Notes under the pieces: generated by a model | Databases searched by the model: none | The model's input: only the letters and a program-made list of their open reading frames with translations | Told to the model about the DNA's origin: nothing | Shown: piece by piece, positions 2,628-26,577 of the stretch | Position numbering within the stretch: the first letter of the stretch is position 1 | How the letters are laid out: each line of letters opens with the position of its first letter | Program-made: the position numbers and the translations under genes | DNA from: Escherichia coli | GTDB lineage: Bacteria > Pseudomonadota > Gammaproteobacteria > Enterobacterales > Enterobacteriaceae | DNA length: 64,000 bases | Direction: 5' to 3' (one strand) | Assembly (NCBI RefSeq): GCF_013315695.1 | Contig: NZ_CP054353.1

Positions 2628-3677
2628 TTAAAAACTGTTCCTGCGCTGCCAGAGCAGTAGCAAAAAAAATGGTCCACCAATCAGTGAGATAATGATTCCG
2701 GCAGGCAGTTGCAAAGGCAAAAAAGCCAAACGACCAATGCTATCCGCCAGAATAACTAACAACGCCCCCGATACCGCACTCCCCAGCAGTAATGTCGTCT
2801 GCCCGCCACGTAGAATAAAACGTGATATATGGGGTGCTATCAATCCGACAAAACCGATGTTACCAACACACGAAACGCAGACGGCTGTCAGGATTATGGG
2901 TGCGGCGACACGTAACAACGCCAGACGAGAACTATTCACCCCTAACCCGGTTGCAACCTGATGACCAAGCAGAGCGATATCCGCCGTCCTGGCGGTGAAC
3001 AGCAATAAAAGAGCGGCTGGCAACATCCAACAGGCTGAAATACCGACTAACATCCAGTTAGCTGCATGCAGGCTTCCCGATAACCACATCAATGCAGTTT
3101 GTACATCTCGAACATCTGCAGTGGTCATAAATACACCGATACCGGCGGCGAAAAACCAAGAAACACCAATACCAATCAGAACAAATCGCGGGCGGGAAAT
3201 ATCGCGCGCACAAAAAATCACGATTAAAGCCACCAACAGGCCACCAGCAAGACCAGCCACTGGACGCCAGAACACTCCCAGCATTGGAAACTGGAAAATC
3301 AGCCACAGCACAGCCACGCTACATCCTTCTTTGACGCCGATTAACCCAGGATCGGCAAGGCCGTTACGTGCAATGGATTGCATTGCGGCCCCTGCCATAC
3401 CTAACATGGCCCCGCATAGCAATGCCATGATGACTCTCGGCAAGCGAATATCCTGCACAATATAACGTGCGTCTGTGCTTACGTTTTCTGGAGCAAACAA
3501 CGCTCGTCCTACTTCCGATGCCGGAACAGAGAAAGAACCCTGCATCAGACCGAATATCAGTATTCCAACCGCAAACAGAAACAGCCCACCAAGCAACAGC
3601 AGATTTTTAGGGCGTACCAGTGTCGAAAACTTACCAACACGTAGTGGGCGTAGCCCGACGTTCATTATCCGACTCAT
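2628..3677 (-). CDS. ABC importer permease, FecCD family
   Basis: 349 aa polytopic membrane ORF with FecCD-like sequence. Confidence 0.8.
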   Translation of the reverse strand: MSRIMNVGLRPLRVGKFSTLVRPKNLLLLGGLFLFAVGILIFGLMQGSFSVPASEVGRALFAPENVSTDARYIVQDIRLPRVIMALLCGAMLGMAGAAMQSIARNGLADPGLIGVKEGCSVAVLWLIFQFPMLGVFWRPVAGLAGGLLVALIVIFCARDISRPRFVLIGIGVSWFFAAGIGVFMTTADVRDVQTALMWLSGSLHAANWMLVGISACWMLPAALLLLFTARTADIALLGHQVATGLGVNSSRLALLRVAAPIILTAVCVSCVGNIGFVGLIAPHISRFILRGGQTTLLLGSAVSGALLVILADSIGRLAFLPLQLPAGIIISLIGGPFFLLLLWQRRNSF

Positions 3678-4657
3678 TTGAACATCCTCGTCGCCATAAT
3701 GACAAAAACAGGCGCACCAACTAACGCCGTCATGACACCGGTCGCTAATTCATGGGGCGTGAAAAGCGTACGGGCAATAATATCTGCCAGTAATAACAAA
3801 AGTGCGCCGACACAAGCTGAAAGAGGGAGCAGAACGCGCAGATCCGCTGATACCAGGCGCCGGACAATCTGCGGTACTAGCAGGCCGACAAAACCAATGG
3901 GGCCAGCAATCGATACGGCTGCGCCACAGAGCAACGCGATCGCAAGCAGGGTGAATGTTCGCGTGCGGAGTACAGAGACGCCCAGCCCCTGCGCCATGCG
4001 ATCGCCCAGTGCCAACATGTTAAGGGAGGGTGCAAGGTAAAGGGCTAACACAAATCCCCCCAGAGAAAACCAGGCGGACGTACCCAGCGTCGCCCAATCC
4101 TGCCCCGCTAAATCACCTGCTAGCCATGTCCGCATCGCCAGCAGTGTTTGTTCGTCAAGAATCAGGATTGCAGCCGTTATTGAGGACACGAACGCCGATA
4201 GCGCCACGCCGCATAAAGTAACTTTCATTGGCGTTAACCCTGAACGCCCTGCGGAGGAAAGCAGCAATATCAACAGGAACAATAACGCGCCGCCCGTAGA
4301 TGCCAGCAGTGGGCGTCCAACCGGAAAGGCCAGCCCAAGCGCACTGGCAGCAACGACAGCAAGAGCGGCTCCGGCATTTAAGCCTAAAATATGTGGCTCC
4401 CCCAATGGGTTACGAATGACAGCCTGCAACAAAGCACCAGCAACTCCAAGAGAAGCACCGGTAAGCAATGCTGCCGCTAAACGCGGCAAACGGAGTCTTA
4501 CAATTACGTTGTGATCGAAGTTTTGCGGTTCAAAATGAAGAAATGCCTGCAATACCGTTTGTGGTGCAATAAATCGGGCACCAATCCCTGGATATACCAC
4601 GCATCCCACCAGCAGTAAGGCGAGGAAAATTACAGTAACCAGCCCTGTGCGCATCAT
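3674..4657 (-). CDS. ABC importer permease, FecCD family
   Basis: 327 aa polytopic membrane ORF; 4-nt overlaps with both neighbours. Confidence 0.8.
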   Translation of the reverse strand: MMRTGLVTVIFLALLLVGCVVYPGIGARFIAPQTVLQAFLHFEPQNFDHNVIVRLRLPRLAAALLTGASLGVAGALLQAVIRNPLGEPHILGLNAGAALAVVAASALGLAFPVGRPLLASTGGALLFLLILLLSSAGRSGLTPMKVTLCGVALSAFVSSITAAILILDEQTLLAMRTWLAGDLAGQDWATLGTSAWFSLGGFVLALYLAPSLNMLALGDRMAQGLGVSVLRTRTFTLLAIALLCGAAVSIAGPIGFVGLLVPQIVRRLVSADLRVLLPLSACVGALLLLLADIIARTLFTPHELATGVMTALVGAPVFVIMATRMFK

Positions 4658-5463
4658 ACTTTTTCTACACCACGAAACGGCATGAAGAACGGCTTTCCCG
4701 TCAGAGGATTTATTGATGCGTGAACATCAACGTCAAAGACAGCTTTTACCAGCTCAGGCGTGCAATGCTCCCCCTCATTCAACACACGCACCACTTTCCC
4801 CTGGCGTAAAAATATCAACGTATCGCCATAATTGACGGCAAAATTCAGATCATGCAACACCACGACGACTGTACGCCCGTGATGACGTGTTAAATCATGT
4901 AATAACTCAAGAATTTCAACCTGATAACGTAAATCAAGCCAGGTTGTGGGTTCATCCAGCAGGATATAAGGCGTCTTTTGCGCCAACACCATCGCAATCC
5001 AGCAACGCTGACGCTGCCCGCCAGAGAGTTTTTCAACAGGTAAATGTGCAAACTCCTGCGTACCCGTTAATTTCAGGGCCTCTTCTACCGCCAGCTCATC
5101 GGCGTCGCTCCATTGACGAATGAAATTCTGCCAGGGAAAACGCCCACGCGACACCAGTTCATAAACGGTTAAGCCCTCCGGCAATAATGGCGACTGCGGC
5201 AAGATCCCAAGTCTACGGGATAACGCTTTCGTTGGTTGCTCGTGAATCGCTTTGCCATCAAGCAATATCGAACCGCCCATGGGTTGCAAGATACGTGCAA
5301 TGGTGCTGAGCAACGTCGACTTTCCACAGCCGTTTGCCCCAACCAGAACGGTCATTTTTTCTGTGGGAACGGAGAAAGAAACACCATCAACAATGATCTT
5401 CTTGTGATACCCGGCAGAAACATTGTCGAGGATCAGCCCCTGCCCTTTTGCGTTATGTGCCAC
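4654..5463 (-). CDS. ABC importer ATP-binding protein (FecE-like)
   Basis: Walker A GANGCGKST, ABC signature LSGGQRQR, Walker B ILLDEPT. Confidence 0.85.
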   Translation of the reverse strand: MAHNAKGQGLILDNVSAGYHKKIIVDGVSFSVPTEKMTVLVGANGCGKSTLLSTIARILQPMGGSILLDGKAIHEQPTKALSRRLGILPQSPLLPEGLTVYELVSRGRFPWQNFIRQWSDADELAVEEALKLTGTQEFAHLPVEKLSGGQRQRCWIAMVLAQKTPYILLDEPTTWLDLRYQVEILELLHDLTRHHGRTVVVVLHDLNFAVNYGDTLIFLRQGKVVRVLNEGEHCTPELVKAVFDVDVHASINPLTGKPFFMPFRGVEKV

Positions 5464-5469
5464 GTGTAC

Positions 5470-5836
5470 GCCAACTTAATCAAAGACAAACAAAAATAAA
5501 ACTCATTCTCCTTTGAGAGTTTGACGCCACAAAATGTAGTAGTCAAGCAGTTAAAAGCCACACAAAAACAAGGTAAATAACAGGTAAAATATTTTTGCAC
5601 ATAAAAATAAAAACATTAAATATCAATAATTTAAAAGCAATCAAATTGTATAAACTTTTCATAAAAACACATGTAGCAATTTTTTGTTATTTCTCATTTA
5701 CTACTACATTACTGCGTGATTGAATGATTCTCAATTACATATCCGATGGCGAAATAACAAACGGATAGTGCTTAGTGAGCAATAAGAAACAATTTTCACT
5801 CGCGACAATCCGCGAGTTTTTGGGATAACAGACTAA
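5470..5836. promoter_or_regulatory. AT-rich divergent promoter region between the ABC operon and the receptor gene; weak Fur-box-like motif near 5717-5738
   Basis: about 370 bp of AT-rich sequence between divergent starts; tgattgaatgattctcaattac resembles the Fur consensus only partially. Confidence 0.3.
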
Positions 5837-7978
5837 ATGGCTATGTTCACACCTTCATTCTCAGGACTCAAAGGTCGGGCGCTCTTTTCACTGCTTTTTG
5901 CGGCACCGATGATTCATGCAACAGACTCTGTAACGACCAAAGATGGCGAAACAATCACTGTTACAGCAGATGCAAATACCGCAACTGAGGCAACCGATGG
6001 TTATCAACCTCTGAGCACCTCTACGGCGACATTAACCGATATGCCGATGCTGGATATCCCGCAGGTGGTCAATACGGTTAGCGATCAGGTTCTGGAAAAC
6101 CAGAATGCGACAACGCTGGATGAGGCGCTTTATAACGTCAGTAACGTGGTACAGACCAATACATTAGGCGGGACTCAGGATGCTTTTGTACGCCGTGGGT
6201 TTGGCGCAAACCGGGATGGCTCCATCATGACCAACGGCCTGCGAACTGTACTTCCTCGCAGTTTCAACGCCGCCACAGAACGTGTGGAAGTGCTAAAAGG
6301 TCCGGCCTCCACGCTGTATGGCATTCTCGATCCTGGTGGATTGATTAACGTCGTGACCAAGCGCCCGGAAAAAACATTCCATGGTTCTGTCTCAGCCACG
6401 TCCTCCAGTTTTGGCGGAGGCACTGGGCAACTTGATATCACAGGTCCCATTGAAGGCACTCAGCTGGCATACCGCCTGACGGGGGAAGTGCAGGATGAAG
6501 ATTACTGGCGAAACTTCGGTAAAGAGCGCAGTACATTTATTGCCCCGTCACTCACCTGGTTTGGTGATAATGCAACAGTAACCATGCTCTATTCCCATCG
6601 GGACTATAAAACTCCGTTCGATCGTGGAACGATTTTCGACCTTACGACGAAACAGCCCGTAAACGTTGATCGAAAAATACGTTTTGACGAACCGTTTAAT
6701 ATTACAGATGGTCAGTCCGATCTGGCGCAACTCAACGCAGAATATCATCTCAATAGCCAGTGGACAGCGCGCTTTGATTACAGCTACAGCCAGGATAAAT
6801 ACAGCGACAATCAGGCTCGCGTTACCGCGTATGATGCAACGACAGGAACGCTGACACGGCGTGTTGATGCAACTCAGGGATCTACCCAGCGTATGCATTC
6901 TACTCGTGCGGATCTGCAAGGGAATGCTGATATTGCTGGGTTCTATAATGAGATTCTGGGTGGGGTGTCATATGAATATTATGATCTTCTGCGCACAGAT
7001 ATGATTCGCTGTAAAAACGCTAAAGATTTCAATATCTACAACCCCGTTTATGGCAATACCAGCAAATGCACAACGGTTTCGGCGTCGGACAGTGATCAGA
7101 CGATCAAACAGGAGAGCTACTCAGCGTATGCACAGGACGCGCTCTATCTGACCGATAACTGGATTGCCGTCGCCGGGATCCGCTATCAGTATTACACGCA
7201 GTATGCGGGTAAAGGCCGTCCTTTTAATGTCAATACTGACAGCCGCGATGAACAATGGACGCCCAAACTGGGGTTAGTCTACAAACTGACGCCATCGGTA
7301 TCCTTATTTGCCAATTATTCGCAAACATTTATGCCGCAGTCGTCAATTGCCAGCTACATTGGCGATCTTCCACCGGAATCATCTAATGCTTACGAAGTCG
7401 GGGCAAAATTCGAGCTATTCGATGGTATCACCGCAGATATTGCGCTGTTTGATATCCATAAACGTAACGTGTTGTATACCGAAAGTATTGGTGATGAAAC
7501 CATTGCCAAAACGGCAGGCCGTGTTCGTTCAAGAGGGGTAGAAGTCGACCTTGCGGGAGCATTAACTGAAAACATTAATATCATTGCCAGCTACGGCTAT
7601 ACCGATGCTAAGGTTCTGGAGGATCCTGATTATGCAGGGAAACCATTGCCGAATGTTCCTCGTCATACCGGTTCGCTATTCCTGACTTATGACATTCATA
7701 ACATGCCTGGCAATAACACACTGACGTTTGGCGGTGGTGGACATGGCGTAAGCCGTCGTTCGGCAACCAATGGGGCTGACTATTATCTGCCAGGCTATTT
7801 CGTTGCCGATGCCTTCGCTGCATACAAAATGAAATTGCAGTATCCGGTCACACTGCAATTAAACGTCAAAAACCTGTTTGATAAAACGTATTACACCTCT
7901 TCCATCGCCACAAATAATCTGGGGAATCAGATTGGCGATCCGCGTGAAGTGCAATTCACGGTGAAAATGGAATTTTGA
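5837..7978 (+). CDS. TonB-dependent outer-membrane receptor
   Basis: 713 aa; signal peptide, TonB-box-like ETITVTA, plug and barrel motifs, C-terminal Phe. Confidence 0.85.
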   Translation: MAMFTPSFSGLKGRALFSLLFAAPMIHATDSVTTKDGETITVTADANTATEATDGYQPLSTSTATLTDMPMLDIPQVVNTVSDQVLENQNATTLDEALYNVSNVVQTNTLGGTQDAFVRRGFGANRDGSIMTNGLRTVLPRSFNAATERVEVLKGPASTLYGILDPGGLINVVTKRPEKTFHGSVSATSSSFGGGTGQLDITGPIEGTQLAYRLTGEVQDEDYWRNFGKERSTFIAPSLTWFGDNATVTMLYSHRDYKTPFDRGTIFDLTTKQPVNVDRKIRFDEPFNITDGQSDLAQLNAEYHLNSQWTARFDYSYSQDKYSDNQARVTAYDATTGTLTRRVDATQGSTQRMHSTRADLQGNADIAGFYNEILGGVSYEYYDLLRTDMIRCKNAKDFNIYNPVYGNTSKCTTVSASDSDQTIKQESYSAYAQDALYLTDNWIAVAGIRYQYYTQYAGKGRPFNVNTDSRDEQWTPKLGLVYKLTPSVSLFANYSQTFMPQSSIASYIGDLPPESSNAYEVGAKFELFDGITADIALFDIHKRNVLYTESIGDETIAKTAGRVRSRGVEVDLAGALTENINIIASYGYTDAKVLEDPDYAGKPLPNVPRHTGSLFLTYDIHNMPGNNTLTFGGGGHGVSRRSATNGADYYLPGYFVADAFAAYKMKLQYPVTLQLNVKNLFDKTYYTSSIATNNLGNQIGDPREVQFTVKMEF

Positions 7979-14958: not shown

Positions 14959-16119
14959 ATGGAAAGAGTCAGTATTACCGAGCGCCCGGACTGGCGCGAA
15001 AAAGCCCACGAATACGGTTTCAATTTTCACACCATGTACGGCGAGCCGTACTGGTGTGAAGATGCTTACTACAAGTTGACCCTCGCCCAGGTTGAAAAGC
15101 TGGAAGAAGTCACCGCCGAACTGCACCAGATGTGCCTGAAAGTGGTGGAAAAAGTGATCGCCAGCGATGAGCTGATGACCAAATTCCGCATACCAAAACA
15201 CACCTGGAGTTTTGTGCGCCAGTCATGGCTGACGCACCAGCCATCGCTTTATTCGCGTCTTGATCTGGCGTGGGATGGCACTGGCGAACCTAAGCTTCTG
15301 GAAAATAACGCCGATACGCCAACGTCACTATACGAGGCGGCGTTCTTTCAGTGGATCTGGCTGGAAGATCAGCTTAACGCCGGTAACTTGCCGGAGGGCA
15401 GCGACCAGTTTAACAGTTTGCAAGAAAAGCTGATCGATCGCTTCGTTGAGCTGCGTGAACAGTATGGCTTCCAGTTGCTGCATCTCACCTGCTGTCGCGA
15501 CACGGTGGAAGATCGCGGAACCATTCAGTATTTGCAGGACTGCGCGACGGAAGCTGAAATCGCTACCGAGTTCCTCTACATCGACGATATCGGGTTAGGT
15601 GAAAAAGGTCAGTTCACGGATTTACAGGATCAGGTGATTTCCAACCTGTTCAAGCTGTATCCGTGGGAATTTATGTTGCGTGAGATGTTCTCCACCAAGC
15701 TGGAGGATGCAGGCGTACGCTGGCTGGAACCGGCGTGGAAGAGCATTATCTCCAACAAAGCGCTTCTACCGCTACTGTGGGAGATGTTCCCGAATCACCC
15801 GAACCTGCTGCCCGCTTATTTTGCGGAAGATGATCATCCGCAAATGGAAAAATATGTGGTTAAACCGATCTTCTCCCGTGAAGGCGCAAACGTGTCGATC
15901 ATTGAGAACGGCAAAACCATTGAAGCAGCGGAAGGTCCGTATGGCGAAGAAGGGATGATTGTTCAGCAATTCCACCCGTTACCGAAATTCGGCGACAGCT
16001 ATATGCTGATTGGTAGCTGGCTGGTGAACGATCAACCTGCCGGAATTGGCATTCGTGAAGACCGTGCATTGATCACCCAGGATATGTCTCGGTTTTATCC
16101 GCATATTTTTGTTGAGTAA
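14959..16119 (+). CDS. ygiC: glutathionylspermidine-synthetase-like ATP-grasp protein YgiC
   Basis: 386 aa ORF, sequence recognised. Confidence 0.85.
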
Positions 16120-16603
16120 TACAGCTTAATATTGCCCCGATAAGCGGGGCAATCTCTTATAATCCACCATTCATAATTCCCATCAATATATAAACACATA
16201 CATATCCAACCTTTATTTAACATTAATACTCAATTTAATGTTAAATCGTCATATGCAAGCGATATTGTAATTAAAGTAAGTGAATACATCACAACATAAC
16301 TATTTGATATTATTTGAATACTTTACTTTTATCTCACCAGATTTAAATTTAATAATTAAAAAACAATGTTGCAGGGATCACACTACACAGTATTGAACAT
16401 TGTGATTGATATATTGCCCCCCTACTATCCATTAAACATAAATATTTGTTTCACCGAATAACAACATATTTAAAAGAAACACAAAAGCATTCTCACTCTT
16501 TATTGAATTAATATTCATATTCACGTAACGAATTTATTAGAACCCTCTCAACAGTCGATATTCATCATTATTATATATTTGCGTTATATAAGGAGATATA
16601 TCC

Positions 16604-18400
16604 ATGTTTGATAAATATAGAAAAACACTCGTAGCCGGAACTGTGGCGATAACCCTGGGTTTGTCAGCATCGGGGGTGATGGCTGCGGGTTTTAAACCAG
16701 CGCCGCCTGCCGGGCAACTGGGTGCGGTCATTGTCGATCCCTACGGCAATGCACCACTGACCGCTTTGGTTAACTTAGATAGCCATGTTATTTCTGACGT
16801 CAAAGTTACCGTCCATGGGAAGGGCGAAAAAGGCGTAGAAATCAGCTATCCCGTGGGTCAGGAATCACTAAAAACTTACGATGGTGTACCGATTTTTGGT
16901 CTTTATCAGAAATTTGCTAACAAAGTGACCGTTGAGTGGAAAGAAAACGGCAAGGTCATGAAAGATGATTATGTGGTGCACACTTCGGCCATCGTCAACA
17001 ATTACATGGATAACCGCTCCATCTCCGACCTACAGCAAACCAAAGTCGTTAAAGTCGCGCCAGGTTTTGAAGATCGCCTCTATCTGGTTAATACCCACAC
17101 CTTTACCGCCCAAGGTTCCGATCTCCACTGGCATGGTGAGAAAGATAAAAATGCCGGTATCCTTGATGCGGGTCCGGCAACTGGCGCACTCCCTTTTGAT
17201 ATCGCGCCCTTTACTTTCATCGTCGATACCGAAGGTGAATACCGCTGGTGGCTGGATCAAGACACTTTCTACGATGGTCGTGACCGCGATATCAACAAGC
17301 GTGGTTATCTGATGGGTATCCGCGAAACGCCACGCGGCACCTTTACCGCTGTACAAGGTCAGCACTGGTACGAGTTCGACATGATGGGGCAGGTGCTCGA
17401 AGATCACAAACTACCGCGCGGATTTGCTGACGCTACTCATGAATCCATTGAGACGCCAAATGGCACAGTATTGTTGCGCGTAGGTAAGAGCAATTACCGT
17501 CGCGATGACGGCGTACACGTCACCACCATTCGTGACCATATCCTCGAAGTCGATAAATCTGGTCGCGTTGTAGATGTATGGGATCTGACGAAGATCCTCG
17601 ATCCGAAACGCGATGCACTGCTCGGCGCGCTGGATGCAGGTGCAGTTTGCGTTAACGTTGACCTTGCCCATGCAGGACAACAGGCAAAACTGGAACCAGA
17701 TACACCGTTCGGCGACGCTCTGGGTGTAGGGCCAGGCCGTAACTGGGCGCACGTTAATTCCATCGCTTATGACGCAAAAGATGACTCAATTATTCTCTCT
17801 TCTCGTCACCAGGGTGTTGTGAAGATTGGTCGTGATAAGCAAGTGAAATGGATCCTTGCACCCTCTAAAGGTTGGGAAAAACCGCTGGCCAGCAAGCTGC
17901 TGAAACCGGTTGATGCTAACGGTAAGCCAATTACCTGTAACGAAAATGGCCTGTGCGAAAACTCAGACTTCGACTTTACCTACACCCAGCATACCGCCTG
18001 GATTTCCAGCAAAGGAACGCTCACCATTTTTGATAATGGCGATGGTCGTCATCTGGAACAACCTGCCTTACCAACCATGAAATATTCCCGCTTTGTGGAA
18101 TATAAGATTGATGAGAAGAAAGGCACCGTTCAGCAAGTGTGGGAATACGGTAAAGAACGTGGCTACGATTTCTATAGCCCAATCACCTCCATCATTGAAT
18201 ATCAAGCCGACCGTAACACCATGTTTGGCTTCGGTGGTTCTATTCATTTGTTCGATGTCGGGCAGCCAACCGTCGGTAAGTTGAACGAAATCGATTACAA
18301 AACCAAAGAAGTGAAAGTGGAAATCGACGTGCTGTCAGATAAACCCAATCAGACTCACTATCGTGCATTGTTAGTCCGTCCACAACAGATGTTCAAATAA
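16604..18400 (+). CDS. assT: periplasmic arylsulfate sulfotransferase
   Basis: 598 aa, signal peptide, sequence recognised as ASST as described in uropathogenic E. coli. Confidence 0.8.
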   Translation: MFDKYRKTLVAGTVAITLGLSASGVMAAGFKPAPPAGQLGAVIVDPYGNAPLTALVNLDSHVISDVKVTVHGKGEKGVEISYPVGQESLKTYDGVPIFGLYQKFANKVTVEWKENGKVMKDDYVVHTSAIVNNYMDNRSISDLQQTKVVKVAPGFEDRLYLVNTHTFTAQGSDLHWHGEKDKNAGILDAGPATGALPFDIAPFTFIVDTEGEYRWWLDQDTFYDGRDRDINKRGYLMGIRETPRGTFTAVQGQHWYEFDMMGQVLEDHKLPRGFADATHESIETPNGTVLLRVGKSNYRRDDGVHVTTIRDHILEVDKSGRVVDVWDLTKILDPKRDALLGALDAGAVCVNVDLAHAGQQAKLEPDTPFGDALGVGPGRNWAHVNSIAYDAKDDSIILSSRHQGVVKIGRDKQVKWILAPSKGWEKPLASKLLKPVDANGKPITCNENGLCENSDFDFTYTQHTAWISSKGTLTIFDNGDGRHLEQPALPTMKYSRFVEYKIDEKKGTVQQVWEYGKERGYDFYSPITSIIEYQADRNTMFGFGGSIHLFDVGQPTVGKLNEIDYKTKEVKVEIDVLSDKPNQTHYRALLVRPQQMFK

Positions 18401-18417
18401 TTAAGAAGGGAATAAAA

Positions 18418-19086
18418 ATGTCGAAATTAGGGATCTCATCACTATTTAAAAGCATACTGCTTACTGCAGCTTTGGCTGTTTCATTTACCGCCTCTGCATT
18501 TACCGAAGGCACGGATTACATGGTTCTGGAAAAACCTATTCCGAATGCAGACAAAACGCTGATTAAGGTATTCAGCTACGCCTGCCCGTTCTGTTACAAG
18601 TACGACAAAGCGGTTACCGGTCCGGTATCGGAAAAAGTGAAAGATATCGTTGCTTTCACGCCGTTCCATCTGGAAACCAAAGGTGAATACGGCAAACAAG
18701 CAAGCGAAGTCTTTGCGGTCTTGATCAATAAAGATAAAGCAGCAGGCATTTCCTTATTTGATGCTAACTCTCAGTTTAAGAAAGCCAAGTTTGCCTACTA
18801 CGTGGCTTATCACGACAAAAAAGAACGCTGGTCTGACGGTAAAGATCCGGCTGCTTTTATCAAAACCGGTCTGGATGCCGCAGGTATGAGTCAGGCGGAT
18901 TTTGAAGCGGCACTGAAAGAACCAGCGGTTCAAGAAACACTGGAAAAATGGAAAGCCTCTTATGATGTCGCCAAAATCCAGGGGGTTCCAGCCTATGTCG
19001 TTAATGGTAAGTACTTGATCTACACCAAGAGCATCAAATCCATCGACGCGATGGCAGACCTTATCCGTGAGTTAGCAAGCAAATAA
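18418..19086 (+). CDS. dsbL: periplasmic thiol:disulfide oxidoreductase DsbL (DsbA paralogue)
   Basis: 222 aa, signal peptide, CPFC active-site motif. Confidence 0.8.
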
Positions 19087-19100
19087 CAGGGAAACAGGCT

Positions 19101-19772
19101 ATGGGTATTAAGGGAATGTGGAAAGATCTTCGCACATCACCAGTTGACACACTGGTCAGATGGCAGGAGCAACGCTTGTTGTGGTTGTTAATGGCCGTTG
19201 CGATGGGCGCGTTAATTATCCTGGCGCACTCTTTCTTCCAGATCTATCTCTACATGGCACCCTGTGAGCAATGTGTATACATTCGCTACGCCATGTTTGT
19301 GATGGTTATTGGAGGATTGGTTGCAGCGATCAACCCAAAGAACATCATCCTAAAGCTAATTGGCTGCGTGATGGCATTTTACGGCAGCATTTTGGGACTG
19401 AAGTTTTCGCTCAAACTGAACGATATCCACCATGCAGTACATAATCCGGATCCCGATTCACTGTTTGGCGTACAGGGTTGCTCTACCGATCCAACTTTTC
19501 CCTTTAACCTGCCGCTGGCACAGTGGGCACCAAATTGGTTCAAGCCTACCGGGGATTGTGGCTATGACGCACCAATCGTTCCTGATGGCGTCACACTGAG
19601 CAGCACGCAACAGTGGTTTGTGGAAATGTATCAGCAATCTGAAGGCTGGTATCTGCTACCACCATGGCATTTTATGAATATGGCTCAGGCTTGTATGCTG
19701 GCTTTTGGTATGTGTCTGGTGCTGCTGGTCATTATGAGTGGCGCATGGGCGCTTAAAATCATCAGAGGCTAA
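19101..19772 (+). CDS. dsbI: membrane disulfide oxidoreductase DsbI (DsbB paralogue)
   Basis: 223 aa polytopic protein with CxxC (CEQC) and a second Cys pair. Confidence 0.8.
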
Positions 19773-19778
19773 CTCAGC

Positions 19779-19818
19779 AACACCCGAAGCCAGTCATTCT
19801 GGCTTCGGGTTCTTTTAT
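19779..19818. terminator. terminator hairpin between dsbI and convergent ygiD
   Basis: stem acccgaagccag/ctggcttcgggt followed by tcttttatt. Confidence 0.55.
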
Positions 19819-21522: not shown

Positions 21523-21579
21523 AAGCAACATCAGAAGTTGTCCAGCGCATGGACAACTTCTGCCAGCTTCACTAAAGCC

Positions 21580-21750
21580 TTATTCTACCTTTTCGGCTGT
21601 CTCTTCTCTCGTACTGTTTAAGTATTTGTTCCGCGCTTCAAGCAGTGCGTCTCTGTCCTGGCGAAACGCCCGACAATAACGTTTCAAATGCAGGAAATAA
21701 CCCACAACAACAAGAGCAATCAATACAATCCAGTACCAGGCGATAAACAT
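21580..21750 (-). CDS. small single-pass membrane protein, hypothetical (about 56 aa)
   Basis: ORF with TAAGGG RBS 7 nt upstream of ATG; one predicted TM helix then charged tail; no homologue recognised. Confidence 0.4.
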   Translation of the reverse strand: MFIAWYWIVLIALVVVGYFLHLKRYCRAFRQDRDALLEARNKYLNSTREETAEKVE

Positions 21751-21940
21751 CCTTTTACCCTTAATATTTAACAATACTAAACATTTAGCGCATAAATTTC
21801 ACATATCCTTTTTCGGATATATTCATATGGTCGCATAATAACGGAACAATTATATGATTTTGATCATAATGAAAAAGAATGCCTGATATTAATGAAATTT
21901 TCTCATAGAAAGAGAAGCGGAATTAACATCTTGCTTAGCA

Positions 21941-21980
21941 GGGAAAAATAAAAACCGAAGCCTGCTACAACTTCGGTTTC
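21941..21980 (-). terminator. rho-independent terminator of ribB
   Basis: stem aaaccgaag/cttcggttt followed by a T-run on the minus strand. Confidence 0.6.
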
Positions 21981-22011
21981 TTGATTAAGGCAGTAAATTA
22001 AGCAGCGGTTT

Positions 22012-22689: not shown

Positions 22690-22930
22690 TGGTTACCAGA
22701 ATCAGGGCAGTCTTAGGAGTGGCGGCATATAGCCAAAATAACGTGAGCGGGTCCATGCCCGACAGAATCGTTACTCTCTCCCATCCGGACTCTAACCGTC
22801 GGCCCCGGAATTACACCGGATCTGCTGTCCTTTGAGTTCGCACCCAAAGCGCTCGCGGGCTTTCAACTGAGTTGATTTACCGCCGGTGGGGAATTTCGCC
22901 CCGCCCTGAGAATAAGCGGATTCACTATAA
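22690..22930 (-). ncRNA. sroG: FMN riboswitch (RFN element) in the ribB leader
   Basis: minus-strand sequence AGGGCGGGGCGAAATTCCCCACCGGCGG ... GGATGGGAGAGAGTAACG matches RFN conserved blocks; bounds approximate. Confidence 0.7.
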
Positions 22931-23372: not shown

Positions 23373-23573
23373 TCAGTGTTCTAATTCAAGTTCTCTGGTT
23401 TGCATCATTTGTTGGCAATACCAGGCATAACGTGCGCAAAACCAGGTTCTATGTTCTTCATCCATGTTACCAGTAACGGCCAGAATATCGACCGGGCGAC
23501 CTTCTGCGTGCATTCTGGCAAAACTACGCGCCAGGAAATCGAAATTATTTAAAGAATTAAGACTATGATCCAT
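23373..23573 (-). CDS. glgS: glycogen synthesis / surface composition regulator GlgS
   Basis: 66 aa from [10 protein letters not shown]. Confidence 0.85.
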
Positions 23574-23841
23574 AAGCACATCCTCCGGTTATCGCATACC
23601 TTTTAAGGCCATATGCTTTTTCTGATTTCAGTATTCACCAATCAGTGTAGTGCCTTTAAACATAACGTGCGTAAATATATTGTCCCCGATCACACTTTTT
23701 AGTGAAAAATAAAAAACCATATTAAAAGACTTTCTCTTCCAGAACTTCTCTAACATGTGTTATTATTAACAAAGATAAATGTAAGCAAGGAAACTATCAT
23801 AAAGTAAATATTGCGTCACTAAATGGACATTGGAGTGACAT

Positions 23842-24471
23842 ATGATTTTATTCGCCGACTATAACACCCCTTATCTTTTCGCTATTTCCTTTGTACTGTT
23901 GATCGGCCTTTTAGAAATTTTTGCGCTTATCTGCGGTCACATGCTCTCCGGTGCACTTGATGCACATCTTGACCATTATGATTCCATAACCACAGGTCAT
24001 ATTAGCCAGGCACTTCATTATCTCAATATCGGAAGATTGCCAGCTCTCGTCGTTCTTTGCTTACTGGCTGGTTTTTTTGGTCTTATTGGCATCCTGTTGC
24101 AGCATACCTGCATCATGGTCTGGCAATCACCACTCTCGAACCTGTTTGTGGTTCCTGTCAGTTTACTGTTTACGATTATTGCGGTGCATTATACCGGTAA
24201 AATAGTTGCGCCCTGGATTCCACGCGATCATAGCTCAGCTATTACAGAAGAAGAATATATTGGTAGCATGGCGTTAATTACCGGTCATCAAGCCACTTCA
24301 GGTAATCCCTACGAAGGAAAACTCACCGATCAATTTGGCCAAATACATTATTTACTACTGGAGCCTGAAGAAGGAAAAATTTTCACTAAAGGAGACAAAG
24401 TGTTAATTATTTGCCGACTTTCTGCAACTCGATATTTGGCGGAAAACAATCCCTGGCCCCAAATATTGTAA
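23842..24471 (+). CDS. yqiJ: NfeD-like inner membrane protein YqiJ
   Basis: 209 aa membrane ORF with C-terminal OB-like domain. Confidence 0.8.
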
Positions 24472-26319: not shown

Positions 26320-26480
26320 ATCAACAATCGGGGAGTCAGCAAGGGGCTGAAACGGGAAAGCCCCTCCCGAGGAAGGGGCCTTATAGAAGGAAAGGGTTAT
26401 GATGAAGTTCGTCATCATACTGGTTGTGTTGTTACTGTTAAGTTTCCCGACTTACTAACAACTCATCAGAGGGGGGAGAA
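26320..26480 (-). ncRNA. Sib-type antisense RNA (antitoxin) overlapping the ibs ORF; bounds approximate
   Basis: inferred from the ibs ORF and flanking GC hairpins (ggggct...agcccc, cccctcc...ggaagggg); K-12 carries sib/ibs loci between yqiK and hldE. Confidence 0.45.
26399..26458 (+). CDS. Ibs-family type I toxin (19 aa hydrophobic peptide MMKFVIILVVLLLLSFPTY)
   Basis: tiny ORF with AAGGAAAGGG RBS; peptide nearly identical to E. coli Ibs toxins. Confidence 0.65.
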   Translation: MMKFVIILVVLLLLSFPTY

Positions 26481-26577
26481 ATCCTCCCTTACCCTTGTTC
26501 CTTTACTTTAGGTTGAAAAAACAACAGCGTCAATAGGTCTATCCGGCACAACGCGAGAACTGTGAAGCGCTTTCCGG

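What the first reader, a model, noticed from the sequence alone, without database searches (positions are those of the whole stretch)
16152..16603. About 450 bp strongly AT-rich leader upstream of assT
The tract between the ygiC terminator and the assT start is far more AT-rich than the surrounding genes (runs such as aatttaatgttaaatcg, ttaaatttaataattaaaaaac) and lacks a credible ORF. Such tracts upstream of horizontally acquired operons are typical H-NS nucleation sites, and the length could also hold a long 5' UTR or a small RNA. The GC content is judged by eye, not computed.
Basis: seen in the sequence. Interest (0 to 1): 0.3.

Follow-up and report, generated by a model that had tools for sequence, protein, structure and literature searches.

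The report
AT-rich two-promoter control region of assT
The 450-bp AT-rich stretch is the on/off control region of an accessory E. coli operon (assT-dsbL-dsbI), holding two weak promoters inside DNA of the kind the silencing protein H-NS coats; it is an ordinary, largely already-understood type of element.

Summary
Observation confirmed. Window 16152-16603 has 26.5% GC, against a window mean of 51.4%. It is the lowest of all 452-bp windows in the 64 kb. No ORF in it is conserved and there is no Rfam match.

It is not the ygiC 3' UTR, because a strong hairpin (16131-16153) follows the ygiC stop. It is the regulatory region of assT-dsbL-dsbI, a 3.7-kb islet absent from K-12 and present in 1508 of 5426 complete E. 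coli genomes.

Three blocks are conserved in an otherwise fast-diverging tract. Two of them align with the two assT transcription start sites mapped by dRNA-seq in Salmonella Typhimurium.
- Distal promoter: TTGTGA-17-TACTAT, predicted +1 at 16435, 5' UTR 169 nt.
- Proximal promoter: -10 GATATT, predicted +1 at 16570, 5' UTR 34 nt.

A conserved CRP-like site sits at -60.5 of the distal promoter. This is a hypothesis only.

The tract's composition is conserved across genera while its sequence is not. In S. Typhi the orthologous operon is repressed by H-NS and activated by LeuO. In UPEC CFT073 the chromosomal copy is silent in laboratory media. H-NS silencing is therefore the best reading.

No canonical H-NS nucleation motif, A-tract phasing, structured RNA or sRNA was found. 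This is a new member of a known kind, of low interest.

The parts
16131..16153 (+). Hairpin AUUGCCCCG-AUAAG-CGGGGCAAU, 12-34 nt after the ygiC stop (16117-16119). Probable ygiC terminator and left edge of the assT control region.
   Evidence: dG -15.4 kcal/mol, z = -3.43, 0 of 200 shuffles fold as well. The stem is identical and only the loop differs in the divergent ST38 allele. The T-run is imperfect (TCTCTTAT) and the terminator scan did not call it. K-12 has a different hairpin at the same place, where the ygiC 3' end was mapped.
16152..16603 (.). AT-rich, TpA-rich tract (GC 26.5%). Proposed H-NS-coated silencing scaffold that contains the promoters.
   Evidence: composition; lowest GC in the window. 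(TpA steps 13.3% against 4.4% in the window). (low GC upstream of assT in all 23 enterobacterial loci checked). (sequence diverges quickly while composition is kept).
16215..16246 (.). Perfect 12-nt inverted repeat ATTTAACATTAA-N8-TTAATGTTAAAT inside an Escherichia-conserved distal block (about 16210-16290). Candidate regulator-binding site of unknown identity, about 190-220 bp upstream of the distal +1.
   Evidence: I3, 100% complementary. Searches show the left arm invariant in five Escherichia lineages and the right arm changing without compensation; 88-90% identity here between alleles, against 47-70% in the flanks.
16367..16382 (.). CRP-like site TGTTG-CAGGGA-TCACA, centre 16374.5, which is -60.5 from the predicted distal +1. 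Hypothetical class I activator site. It contains the only GATC of the leader (16376).
   Evidence: TG and GATCACA are invariant in 16 sequences from 5 genera, while the central spacer varies; spacing to TACTAT is fixed at 47 bp; 13 of 22 matches to the CRP consensus (15 of 22 in Citrobacter by hand count); the match alone is at chance level (19 found against 26 expected).
16400..16428 (+). Distal promoter: -35 TTGTGA (16400-16405), 17-bp spacer, -10 TACTAT (16423-16428).
   Evidence: ungapped alignment with the -50..+1 sequence of the S. Typhimurium SL1344 secondary assT TSS (3375044; PMC3963941 Table S7). TTG and TA.TAT are conserved; 4/6 + 4/6 matches to consensus.
16435..16435 (+). Predicted distal transcription start (A), giving a 169-nt 5' UTR (16435-16603).
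   Evidence: Homology to the mapped Salmonella TSS. Not measured in E. coli. The UTR folds no better than shuffles (z = 0.04). C/G ratio 1.9.
16534..16562 (+). Proximal promoter: -35-like TTATTA (16534-16539), 17-bp spacer, -10 GATATT (16557-16562).
   Evidence: alignment with the -50..+1 sequence of the S. Typhimurium primary assT TSS (3375170, 36 nt before the ATG); 93-100% identity between E. coli alleles from 16540; 3/6 + 4/6 matches to consensus.
16570..16570 (+). Predicted proximal transcription start (A), giving a 34-nt 5' UTR.
   Evidence: by homology only.
16586..16606 (+). Block ATATAAGGAGATATATCC-ATG, nearly invariant (17 of 21 columns identical in all 12 aligned sequences): Shine-Dalgarno AAGGAG (16590-16595), 8-nt spacer, assT start codon.
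   Evidence: this block is conserved across Escherichia, Citrobacter, Salmonella, Pseudocitrobacter and Intestinirhabdus.
16604..19772 (+). The controlled operon: assT (16604-18400), dsbL (18418-19086), dsbI (19101-19772).
   Evidence: ORFs. (RefSeq annotation in E2348/69). PMC7810732 describes a tri-cistronic operon.
16120..19817 (.). Variable islet (leader plus operon) that replaces the 37-bp ygiC-ygiD spacer of K-12.
   Evidence: Present in 1508 of 5426 complete E. coli genomes.

Best explanation
The tract is the transcriptional control region of the accessory operon assT-dsbL-dsbI.

**Anatomy**
- ygiC transcription ends at the hairpin 16131-16153.
- The rest is non-coding DNA that carries two weak sigma-70-type promoters.
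- The distal promoter is TTGTGA-17-TACTAT, with predicted +1 at 16435 and a 169-nt unstructured 5' UTR.
- The proximal promoter has -10 GATATT, with predicted +1 at 16570 and a 34-nt 5' UTR.
- A strong, invariant ribosome-binding block follows.

**Proposed mechanism**
- These elements lie in about 450 bp of 26.5%-GC, TpA-rich DNA. Its sequence drifts freely, but its length and composition are kept in every lineage.
- The most likely mechanism is that H-NS polymerises over this tract and occludes both weak promoters. This keeps the operon silent in ordinary culture.
- Expression would then need counter-silencing or activation: by LeuO, as shown for the S. Typhi ortholog, and possibly by cAMP-CRP bound at the conserved TGT-N8-GATCACA site centred at -60.5 of the distal promoter.

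**Shown here**
- The composition.
- The conserved blocks.
- The homology of those blocks to mapped Salmonella start sites.
- The absence of a conserved ORF or RNA structure.

**Inferred**
- Start sites in E. coli, H-NS occupancy, LeuO action in E. coli, and CRP action.

**Sub-claim confidences**
- Two-promoter control region: about 0.8.
- H-NS silencing: about 0.7.
- LeuO counter-silencing in E. coli: about 0.5.
- CRP activation: about 0.35.
For: - **Composition.** GC is 0.265, the minimum of the 64 kb. TpA steps are three times the window average.
- **Conservation across lineages.** A low-GC gap of about 290-790 bp lies upstream of assT in nearly all of 23 enterobacterial loci, despite different neighbouring genes.
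- **Promoter core.** An 80-nt core aligns without gaps in 16 sequences from 5 genera. The GATCACA-to-TACTAT spacing is fixed at 47 bp, while the distance to the ATG varies from 141 to 371.
- **Conservation within E. coli.** The core is at least 90% identical in 1507 of 1508 genomes, whereas the whole leader is below 90% in 262.
- **Mapped start sites.** S. Typhimurium dRNA-seq lists two assT TSSs, 36 and 162 nt before the ATG. Their -50..+1 sequences align with window 16520-16570 and 16385-16435 (PMC3963941 Table S7).
- **Promoter strength.** Both promoters are weak matches to consensus (8/12 and 7/12) and were not called by the promoter scan. This fits dependence on an activator.
- **Literature on the ortholog.** The S. 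Typhi assT-dsbL-dsbI cluster is regulated negatively by H-NS and positively by LeuO, depending on growth conditions (PMC4264507 citing Gallego-Hernandez 2012).
- **Literature on E. coli.** Chromosomal assT of CFT073 is not expressed in standard media and is reported to be up-regulated in the urine of infected mice (PMC7810732).
- **More distant lineages.** assT there carries a divergent LeuO-like LysR regulator.
Against: - No E. coli transcript, ChIP or reporter data were available. The start sites are inferred by homology only.
- No good match to the published H-NS high-affinity motif was found. There are six matches with 2 mismatches, as expected for AT-rich DNA, and none with 1 or fewer.
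- There is no A-tract phasing.
- The primary S. Typhi paper could not be read, so its mapped promoters and footprints could not be compared.
- The CRP-like match is at chance level on its own. Its left half is weak (TGTTG), and the centre is -60.5 rather than the canonical -61.5.
- Extreme AT content could partly reflect mutation bias on unconstrained spacer DNA.
Confidence: 0.72

Rival explanations
1. The tract is mostly neutral spacer. Only the two promoters and the ribosome-binding block are functional. The extreme AT content and rapid divergence of the rest would then reflect AT-biased mutation on unconstrained DNA, not selection for H-NS binding.
For: - Outside the conserved blocks, two E. 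coli alleles are only 47-70% identical, while the flanking genes are 97-100% identical.
- No H-NS motif or curvature signal was found.
- The distance from core to ATG varies, and the region tolerates 128-135-bp insertions.
Against: - The gap is kept long (about 290-790 bp in nearly all loci) and 15-24 GC points below the local mean in every lineage, including Edwardsiella at about 60% GC.
- It is far more AT-rich than any other intergenic stretch of the window (next lowest 33%).
- H-NS repression has been reported for the Salmonella ortholog.
- Even under this reading, DNA of this composition would still bind H-NS in vivo (established knowledge of H-NS preference for AT-rich DNA).
Confidence: 0.15
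2. The long leader encodes a structured cis-regulatory RNA (riboswitch or attenuator), a small RNA, or a leader peptide that controls assT.
For: - A 169-nt 5' UTR is predicted from the distal promoter.
- A 31-codon ORF starts at the conserved ATG 16366.
- An inverted repeat CAATGTT/AACATTG flanks the core (I2).
- The + strand is C-rich and G-poor (C/G 2.2), which would allow Rho loading.
Against: - Rfam gave no match at E up to 10. The whole-window run found the FMN riboswitch, Sib RNA and a tRNA, which serve as positive controls.
- RNAalifold predicts 0 pairs on either strand of the core.
- The inverted repeat shows no covariation beyond shuffles.
- The UTR folds no better than shuffles (z = 0.04 on the + strand, -0.19 on the minus strand).
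- The ORF is not conserved: its ATG is lost in 3 taxa and it stops after 6 codons in another.
- The UTR sequence is the least conserved part of the leader.
Confidence: 0.05
3. The tract is a scar or cargo end of a mobile element that delivered assT-dsbL-dsbI.
For: - The islet is present in only 28% of complete E. coli genomes and absent from K-12.
- It sits at a different site (yqiD-ribB) in Salmonella and Citrobacter.
- AT-rich ends are common in islands.
Against: - There are no flanking direct repeats, no terminal inverted repeats, and no integrase, transposase or tRNA at the borders.
- The borders coincide exactly with the stop codons of ygiC and ygiD.
- The same site is used in four Escherichia species.
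- The tract contains conserved promoters aligned to mapped TSSs.
Confidence: 0.03

Closest known systems
[quoted passage not shown] 2012, J Bacteriol 194:2254; cited in PMC4264507), and the two assT TSSs of S. Typhimurium SL1344 (PMC3963941 Table S7)
   Same: - Orthologous operon with the same gene order.
- A long AT-rich upstream region.
- Both promoter blocks and the RBS block are conserved and align without gaps (distal) or nearly so (proximal).
- The spacing from -10 to +1 is the same.
- H-NS repression and LeuO activation are reported for the Salmonella locus.
   Different: - The chromosomal site differs: ygiC/ygiD in Escherichia, yqiD/ribB in Salmonella and Citrobacter.
- The roughly 240 bp upstream of the core, including the 12-nt inverted repeat, is specific to Escherichia.
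- The proximal -10 is GATATT instead of TATATT.
- No experimental data exist for the E. coli region in the material searched.
- The Salmonella footprints could not be compared because the paper is not held.
H-NS-silenced, LeuO-antagonised promoters of enterobacteria (ompS1 and the casA/CRISPR-Cas operon in S. Typhi; bgl and yjjQ-bglJ in E. coli). The E. coli examples are from general knowledge; the S. Typhi examples appear in PMC4264507.
   Same: - An AT-rich upstream region several hundred bp long.
- Weak promoters.
- Silence in laboratory culture.
- Activation by an LTTR acting as an H-NS antagonist.
- More than one start site, depending on conditions.
   Different: - H-NS and LeuO binding were not tested here.
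- No recognisable nucleation motif.
- The leader carries a conserved CRP-like half-site, and in distant lineages a dedicated LeuO-like regulator sits next to assT.
Class I CRP-dependent promoters (lac type, site centred near -61.5)
   Same: - A perfect right half GATCACA and a conserved TG of the left half.
- The conservation profile mirrors CRP contact positions.
- The distance to the -10 is fixed, and the centre is at -60.5 from the homology-inferred +1.
- The -35 is weak.
   Different: - The left half is poor (TGTTG or TGTCG).
- The centre is 1 bp off the canonical position.
- The match is at chance level in the window.
- No functional data.
Divergent allelic promoter regions between conserved genes in E. 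coli ('horizontal regulatory switching', Oren et al. 2014 PNAS; recalled from memory, not read here)
   Same: Flanking genes are 97-100% identical while the intergenic region falls into discrete allele classes, from 95% or more down to 60-80% identity.
   Different: - The alleles here are still homologous and share the promoter cores.
- Whether they arose by import or by local fast divergence was not resolved.

Membership tests
H-NS-silenced AT-rich regulatory region (xenogeneic-silencing target) | GC content far below the genome mean over at least 200-300 bp | tested here: met
   GC 0.265 over 452 bp against 0.514. Lowest in the 64 kb.
H-NS-silenced AT-rich regulatory region (xenogeneic-silencing target) | High-affinity nucleation motif (tCG(t/a)T(a/t)AATT, Lang et al. 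2007; recalled) | tested here: not met
   Only matches with 2 mismatches (6 in the tract), none with 1 or fewer. The window-wide count equals shuffles.
H-NS-silenced AT-rich regulatory region (xenogeneic-silencing target) | Intrinsic curvature from phased A-tracts | tested here: not met
   No excess AA/TT power at periods of 10-11.25 bp (97.8% of simulations were higher). Only 6 A/T runs of 4 or more. This is a simple proxy, not a full curvature model.
H-NS-silenced AT-rich regulatory region (xenogeneic-silencing target) | H-NS occupancy, and derepression in hns mutants | not testable with these tools
   Reported for the S. Typhi ortholog (PMC4264507). CFT073 assT is silent in laboratory media (PMC7810732). 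No E. coli ChIP data were found.
H-NS-silenced AT-rich regulatory region (xenogeneic-silencing target) | Associated gene is accessory or variably present | tested here: met
   Present in 1508 of 5426 complete genomes and absent from K-12. But assT GC is about 49%, so the coding part is not compositionally foreign.
Sigma-70 promoter | -35 and -10 hexamers with a 16-18 bp spacer | tested here: met
   Distal TTGTGA-17-TACTAT (8/12). Proximal TTATTA-17-GATATT (7/12). Both fall below the scan threshold of 9/12.
Sigma-70 promoter | Mapped transcription start 6-8 nt downstream of the -10 | tested here: inconclusive
   Met in the S. Typhimurium ortholog (dRNA-seq) and transferable by alignment. Not measured in E. 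coli.
Class I CRP-dependent promoter | Match to TGTGA-N6-TCACA | tested here: inconclusive
   8 of 10 core positions and 13-15 of 22 overall (and hand count). Frequency is at chance level in the window. Invariant in 16 orthologs at the contact positions.
Class I CRP-dependent promoter | Site centred near -61.5 (or one or more helical turns further upstream) | tested here: inconclusive
   Centre 16374.5 lies at -60.5 from the inferred +1 at 16435. The spacing is invariant.
Class I CRP-dependent promoter | Dependence on cAMP-CRP | not testable with these tools
   No literature was found.
Structured cis-regulatory RNA or sRNA | Match to a described RNA family | tested here: not met
   Rfam 15 gave nothing in the tract at E up to 10 over 15000-18000. 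Positive controls were found elsewhere in the window.
Structured cis-regulatory RNA or sRNA | Conserved secondary structure with covariation, and stability above shuffles | tested here: not met
   0 consensus pairs on either strand. The inverted repeat scores no better than shuffles. z = 0.04 and -0.19.
Leader peptide or small protein gene | ORF conserved in start, frame and length | tested here: not met
   start lost in 3 of 16, stop after 6 codons in 1, lengths of 6-40 aa. Changes between alleles are mostly non-synonymous.
3' UTR of ygiC | No terminator between ygiC and the tract | tested here: not met
   A strong conserved hairpin lies at 16131-16153. In K-12 the ygiC 3' end maps to the hairpin right after the stop.

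The most novel reading that the evidence does not exclude
The leader may be a portable 'silencer-plus-promoter cassette' that has travelled with assT between chromosomal sites.
- A small promoter core, derived from an ancestral LysR-controlled promoter and now carrying a CRP-type site, is held constant.
- The surrounding H-NS-binding DNA is selected for composition only.
- That surrounding DNA has split into ancient allele classes, up to 30% diverged between strains whose flanking genes are nearly identical. One allele class is closer to E. whittamii than to other E. coli.
- These alleles may set different silencing thresholds in different E. coli lineages.
Probability: 0.2. Interest if true: 0.45.

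Novelty: new member of a known kind. Interest (0 to 1): 0.22.

Why it matters
AssT is used as a reporter for DsbA and DsbL inhibitors. It is one of the accessory functions that separates B2/D-type (extra-intestinal pathogenic and probiotic) E. coli from K-12. Its chromosomal copy is silent in the laboratory but reported to be induced in infected urine.

Knowing where its promoters are, and that they lie in a probable H-NS target with a possible CRP input, gives concrete constructs for finding the inducing signal.

The sharp contrast between conserved composition and unconserved sequence is a neat natural example of how silencing regions evolve. The contrast between a conserved core and allele classes 20-30% diverged within one species makes the same point. 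None of this changes current understanding.

Tried and rejected
- **Known RNA families.** Rfam scans of the region at E up to 10, and of the whole window at gathering threshold, found nothing in the leader.
- **Conserved RNA structure.** RNAalifold on the 80-nt core (+ strand) and a 101-nt version (minus strand) gave 0 pairs. An explicit test of the CAATGTT/AACATTG helix showed no covariation beyond shuffles.
- **Folding stability.** The predicted 5' UTR and the minus-strand core fold no better than shuffles.
- **Leader ORF.** The ORF from ATG 16366 is not conserved.
- **Minus-strand promoter.** The only promoter-like hit of the scan (16337-16309, minus strand) lies in the least conserved segment, so it was rejected.
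- **H-NS signals.** The consensus motif scan and the AA/TT periodicity test showed no specific signal.
- **CRP pattern in isolation.** It occurs at chance level.
- **A misleading alignment.** MAFFT aligned the E. coli ATTTAACATTAA with a Citrobacter/Salmonella TTTAACGTTAAA palindrome. That left part of the Citrobacter/Salmonella sequences is in fact the yqiD-ribB spacer (homologous to window 21760-21870), because their assT cluster sits at a different site. The similarity was therefore discarded.
- **Repeat ATATTGCCCC.** It occurs at 16129 and 16411 and was judged a chance or lineage-specific coincidence.
- **Second copy of the core.** None was found elsewhere in E. coli genomes.
- **Literature not held.** The primary S. 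Typhi papers are not held, and the Lucchini 2006 supplements are not held.
- **Literature searches without result.** Searches by locus tag and for CRP or cAMP links gave nothing useful. The Ramachandran 2012 supplements do not contain assT. No TSS table for a B2 E. coli strain was located.
Full report
**1. Observation**

The window is E. coli. The local gene order is tolC, ygiB, ygiC (14959-16119), assT (16604-18400), dsbL (18418-19086), dsbI (19101-19772), then ygiD on the minus strand and zupT.

The reported interval 16152-16603 has GC 0.265. The window mean is 0.514, and the sd of all 452-bp windows is 0.0475. The global minimum of the 64 kb (0.257) lies at 16173-16624, and the next lowest non-overlapping region has GC 0.334. 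TpA steps make up 13.3% of dinucleotides, against 4.4% in the window.

The ORFs inside are only 30-42 aa and none is conserved. RefSeq annotates nothing in the gap.

**2. Borders and context**

A hairpin lies 12-34 nt after the ygiC stop (16131-16153). Its free energy is -15.4 kcal/mol and its z-score is -3.4. Its stem is unchanged in a divergent allele, while the loop differs.

In K-12, which has a different hairpin at the same place, the ygiC 3' end was mapped to that hairpin, 37-39 nt after the stop (PMC10687069 supplement). The tract is therefore not the ygiC 3' UTR.

K-12 lacks everything from the ygiC stop to the ygiD stop (window 16120-19817) and has a 37-bp spacer instead. The leader is present in 1508 of 5426 complete E. 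coli genomes, once per genome. These include E2348/69, ATCC 25922, Nissle 1917, and ST95, ST38 and APEC strains. No repeats, mobile-element genes or tRNA mark the borders.

**3. Comparative anatomy**

AssT relatives were located in 52 loci from one genome per species.

In nearly all of the 23 enterobacterial loci examined, assT is preceded by a non-coding gap of about 290-790 bp. Its GC is 15-24 points below the local mean: 0.23-0.37 where the locus is 0.46-0.54, and 0.40-0.43 in Edwardsiella at 0.58-0.60.

The neighbouring genes differ:
- Escherichia species have the cluster after ygiC.
- Salmonella and Citrobacter have it between yqiD and ribB.
- Budviciaceae and Edwardsiella have a divergent LysR-type regulator next to it.

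The AT-rich leader therefore travels with assT.

Within the leader, most sequence is unalignable between genera, but three blocks stand out:
- **Core block.** An 80-nt core (window about 16356-16435) aligns without a single gap in 16 sequences from Escherichia, Citrobacter, Salmonella, Pseudocitrobacter and Intestinirhabdus. Its invariant positions read A.AA...TG.......GATCACA.T, then TT (within a conserved ATTGT), then TA..AT. The GATCACA-to-TACTAT distance is fixed at 47 bp, while the distance to the ATG ranges from 141 to 371.
- **Proximal block.** This covers about 16541-16603 and ends in the nearly invariant ATATAAGGAGATATATCC-ATG.
- **Distal block, in Escherichia only.** This covers about 16210-16290 and contains a perfect 12-nt inverted repeat, ATTTAACATTAA-N8-TTAATGTTAAAT.

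**4. What the blocks are**

A dRNA-seq study of S. Typhimurium SL1344 lists two start sites for assT (SL1344_3165, in operon 3165-3167). They were detected in early stationary phase in LB and not in late stationary phase. The primary start is 36 nt before the ATG and the secondary start is 162 nt before it. Each is given with its -50..+1 sequence (PMC3963941 Table S7).

The secondary-promoter sequence aligns ungapped with window 16385-16435. This places -35 TTGTGA at 16400-16405, -10 TACTAT at 16423-16428 and +1 at A16435. I had inferred this promoter from the conservation pattern before I found the data.

The primary-promoter sequence aligns with the proximal block. This places -10 GATATT at 16557-16562 (TATATT in Salmonella) and +1 at A16570.

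Both promoters are weak (8/12 and 7/12 matches to consensus) and were missed by the consensus scan.

The leader is thus a two-promoter control region, with predicted 5' UTRs of 169 and 34 nt. This is shown by homology and has not been measured in E. coli.

**5. A possible activator site**

Upstream of the distal -35, the invariant TG-N8-GATCACA fits the CRP consensus. The right half matches AGATCACA perfectly, and the left half is TGTTG or TGTCG. The match is 13 of 22 in the window and 15 of 22 in Citrobacter by hand count.

Its centre (16374.5) lies at -60.5 from the inferred +1, one base from the canonical class I position. The conservation profile is high at the contact positions and low in the central spacer.

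Against this, a match with 2 mismatches occurs at chance frequency in the window (19 found, 26 expected), and I found no literature linking CRP to assT. I treat it as a hypothesis, with a probability of about 0.35.

**6. Why H-NS**

H-NS binding cannot be computed directly. The evidence for it is as follows:
- The composition is extreme and TpA-rich.
- Composition and length are conserved while sequence is not.
- The orthologous S. Typhi cluster is reported to be repressed by H-NS and activated by LeuO in a condition-dependent way (PMC4264507). The primary paper is not held.
- In CFT073 the chromosomal gene is not expressed under standard conditions and is reported to be up-regulated in the urine of infected mice (PMC7810732).
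- The regulators encoded next to assT in Budviciaceae and Edwardsiella hit LeuO second best among NCBIfam families. They are 25% identical to E. coli LeuO. Their intergenic region carries a palindrome TTATCTCT-N4-AGAGATAA directly beside the same CCTACTATC element. This suggests an ancestral LysR-controlled promoter.

The evidence against a discrete 'nucleation site' is the absence of any match to the published motif with 1 mismatch or fewer and the absence of A-tract phasing.

**7. RNA and peptide readings rejected**

- Rfam found nothing in the leader, while it did find the FMN riboswitch, a Sib RNA and a tRNA elsewhere in the window.
- RNAalifold predicts no pairs on either strand of the core.
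- The inverted repeat around the core shows no covariation.
- The predicted UTR folds like its shuffles.
- The ORF at 16366 is not conserved.
- In the distal inverted repeat, the right arm changes without compensation. This favours a DNA-binding site over an RNA hairpin.

**8. An unusual side feature**

Within E. coli the leader is far more divergent than its surroundings. Compared with an ST38 genome:
- the last 300 bp of ygiC are 100% identical;
- assT is 97.2% identical;
- other intergenic regions are 0-4% diverged;
- the leader is only 77% identical, falling to 47-51% in 40-bp windows.

Across the 1508 genomes the whole leader falls into identity classes: 95% or more (1246 genomes), 80-90% (118) and 60-80% (144). 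The 91-bp core, by contrast, is at least 90% identical in all but one genome.

The ST38-type leader is closer to that of E. whittamii (87%) than to the window type (77%). I did not resolve whether this reflects old alleles kept apart by failure to recombine, import from another lineage, or fast local mutation.

**9. Verdict**

It rests on composition and on data from the orthologous locus, not on any specific motif.

The sRNA and structured-RNA suggestion is not supported. A long 5' UTR is likely for one of the two promoters.

This is an E. coli member of a kind of region already characterised in Salmonella. Interest is low. The conserved core with its CRP-like site, the divergent allele classes and the LeuO-like neighbour in distant lineages are modest leads.

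Noticed in passing
L016 2605-3573(-), L017 2595-3581(-), L018 2494-3531(-), L021 2604-3596(-), and their intergenic regions about 3570-3700: In Limnobaculum, Leminorella, Budvicia and Edwardsiella, assT has a divergently transcribed LysR-type regulator. Its second-best NCBIfam hit is LeuO (best is BsrA), and it is 25% identical to E. coli LeuO. A palindrome TTATCTCT-N4-AGAGATAA abuts the same CCTACTATC element that forms the distal -10 in E. coli. In most of these loci (not Budvicia), a CRP-like CGTGA-N6-TCAAA site lies about 30-40 bp further on. This suggests an ancestral dedicated regulator that was lost in Enterobacteriaceae.
   Followed up: partly
window 16120-16603 compared with L003 5021-5504; E. 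coli genome survey: The leader is 8-30 times more diverged between E. coli strains than the flanking genes and other intergenic regions. It falls into three identity classes (95% or more, 80-90%, 60-80%). The ST38-type allele is closest to the E. whittamii leader. The promoter core escapes this divergence.
   Followed up: partly
L011 (S. enterica arizonae) 3427-7908; window 21750-21870: In Salmonella and Citrobacter the assT-dsbL-dsbI cluster lies between yqiD and ribB, two genes away from its Escherichia position between ygiC and ygiD. The left part of their 'leader' is homologous to the E. coli yqiD-ribB spacer.
   Followed up: yes
L020 3844-3971 and L013 3790-3924: A 128-135-bp insertion with ERIC/IRU-like ends (CCCTAAATAATTCGAGTTGCAG ... 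GAAGTATGACGGGTATA, by recollection of the consensus) sits between the distal promoter and the RBS in Intestinirhabdus and C. amalonaticus. It would lengthen the distal 5' UTR. E. coli genomes match it only at about 75-80% identity and at one place per genome.
   Followed up: partly
L005 about 3950-3975 (Escherichia sp. MOD1-EC7003): A 10-bp deletion removes the -10 region of the proximal promoter while the distal core is intact. This is a natural single-promoter variant.
   Followed up: no
window 18900-19199: A second local peak of divergence between the window and the ST38 genome (14% and 9% in consecutive 150-bp bins) lies at the 3' end of dsbL and the start of dsbI. The background is 0-3%.
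   Followed up: no
window 16129-16138 and 16411-16420: The 10-mer ATATTGCCCC occurs both in the left arm of the ygiC terminator hairpin and in the spacer of the distal promoter. This is probably coincidence and it is absent outside Escherichia.
   Followed up: partly
window 16152-16603, + strand: There is a strong C-over-G bias (C 82, G 38; 19 C and 0 G in 16160-16237), and the predicted distal 5' UTR is unstructured. This composition would permit Rho loading on untranslated leader RNA.
   Followed up: no
window 26384-26533(-), 22769-22917(-), 47356-47428(+): Rfam matches above gathering score elsewhere in the window: a Sib antitoxin RNA, the FMN riboswitch upstream of ribB, and a tRNA. They served as positive controls for the RNA search.
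   Followed up: no
window 5448-5899, 23537-23988, 21553-22004: These are the next most AT-rich stretches of the window (GC 0.33-0.37). All are much less extreme than the assT leader.
   Followed up: no
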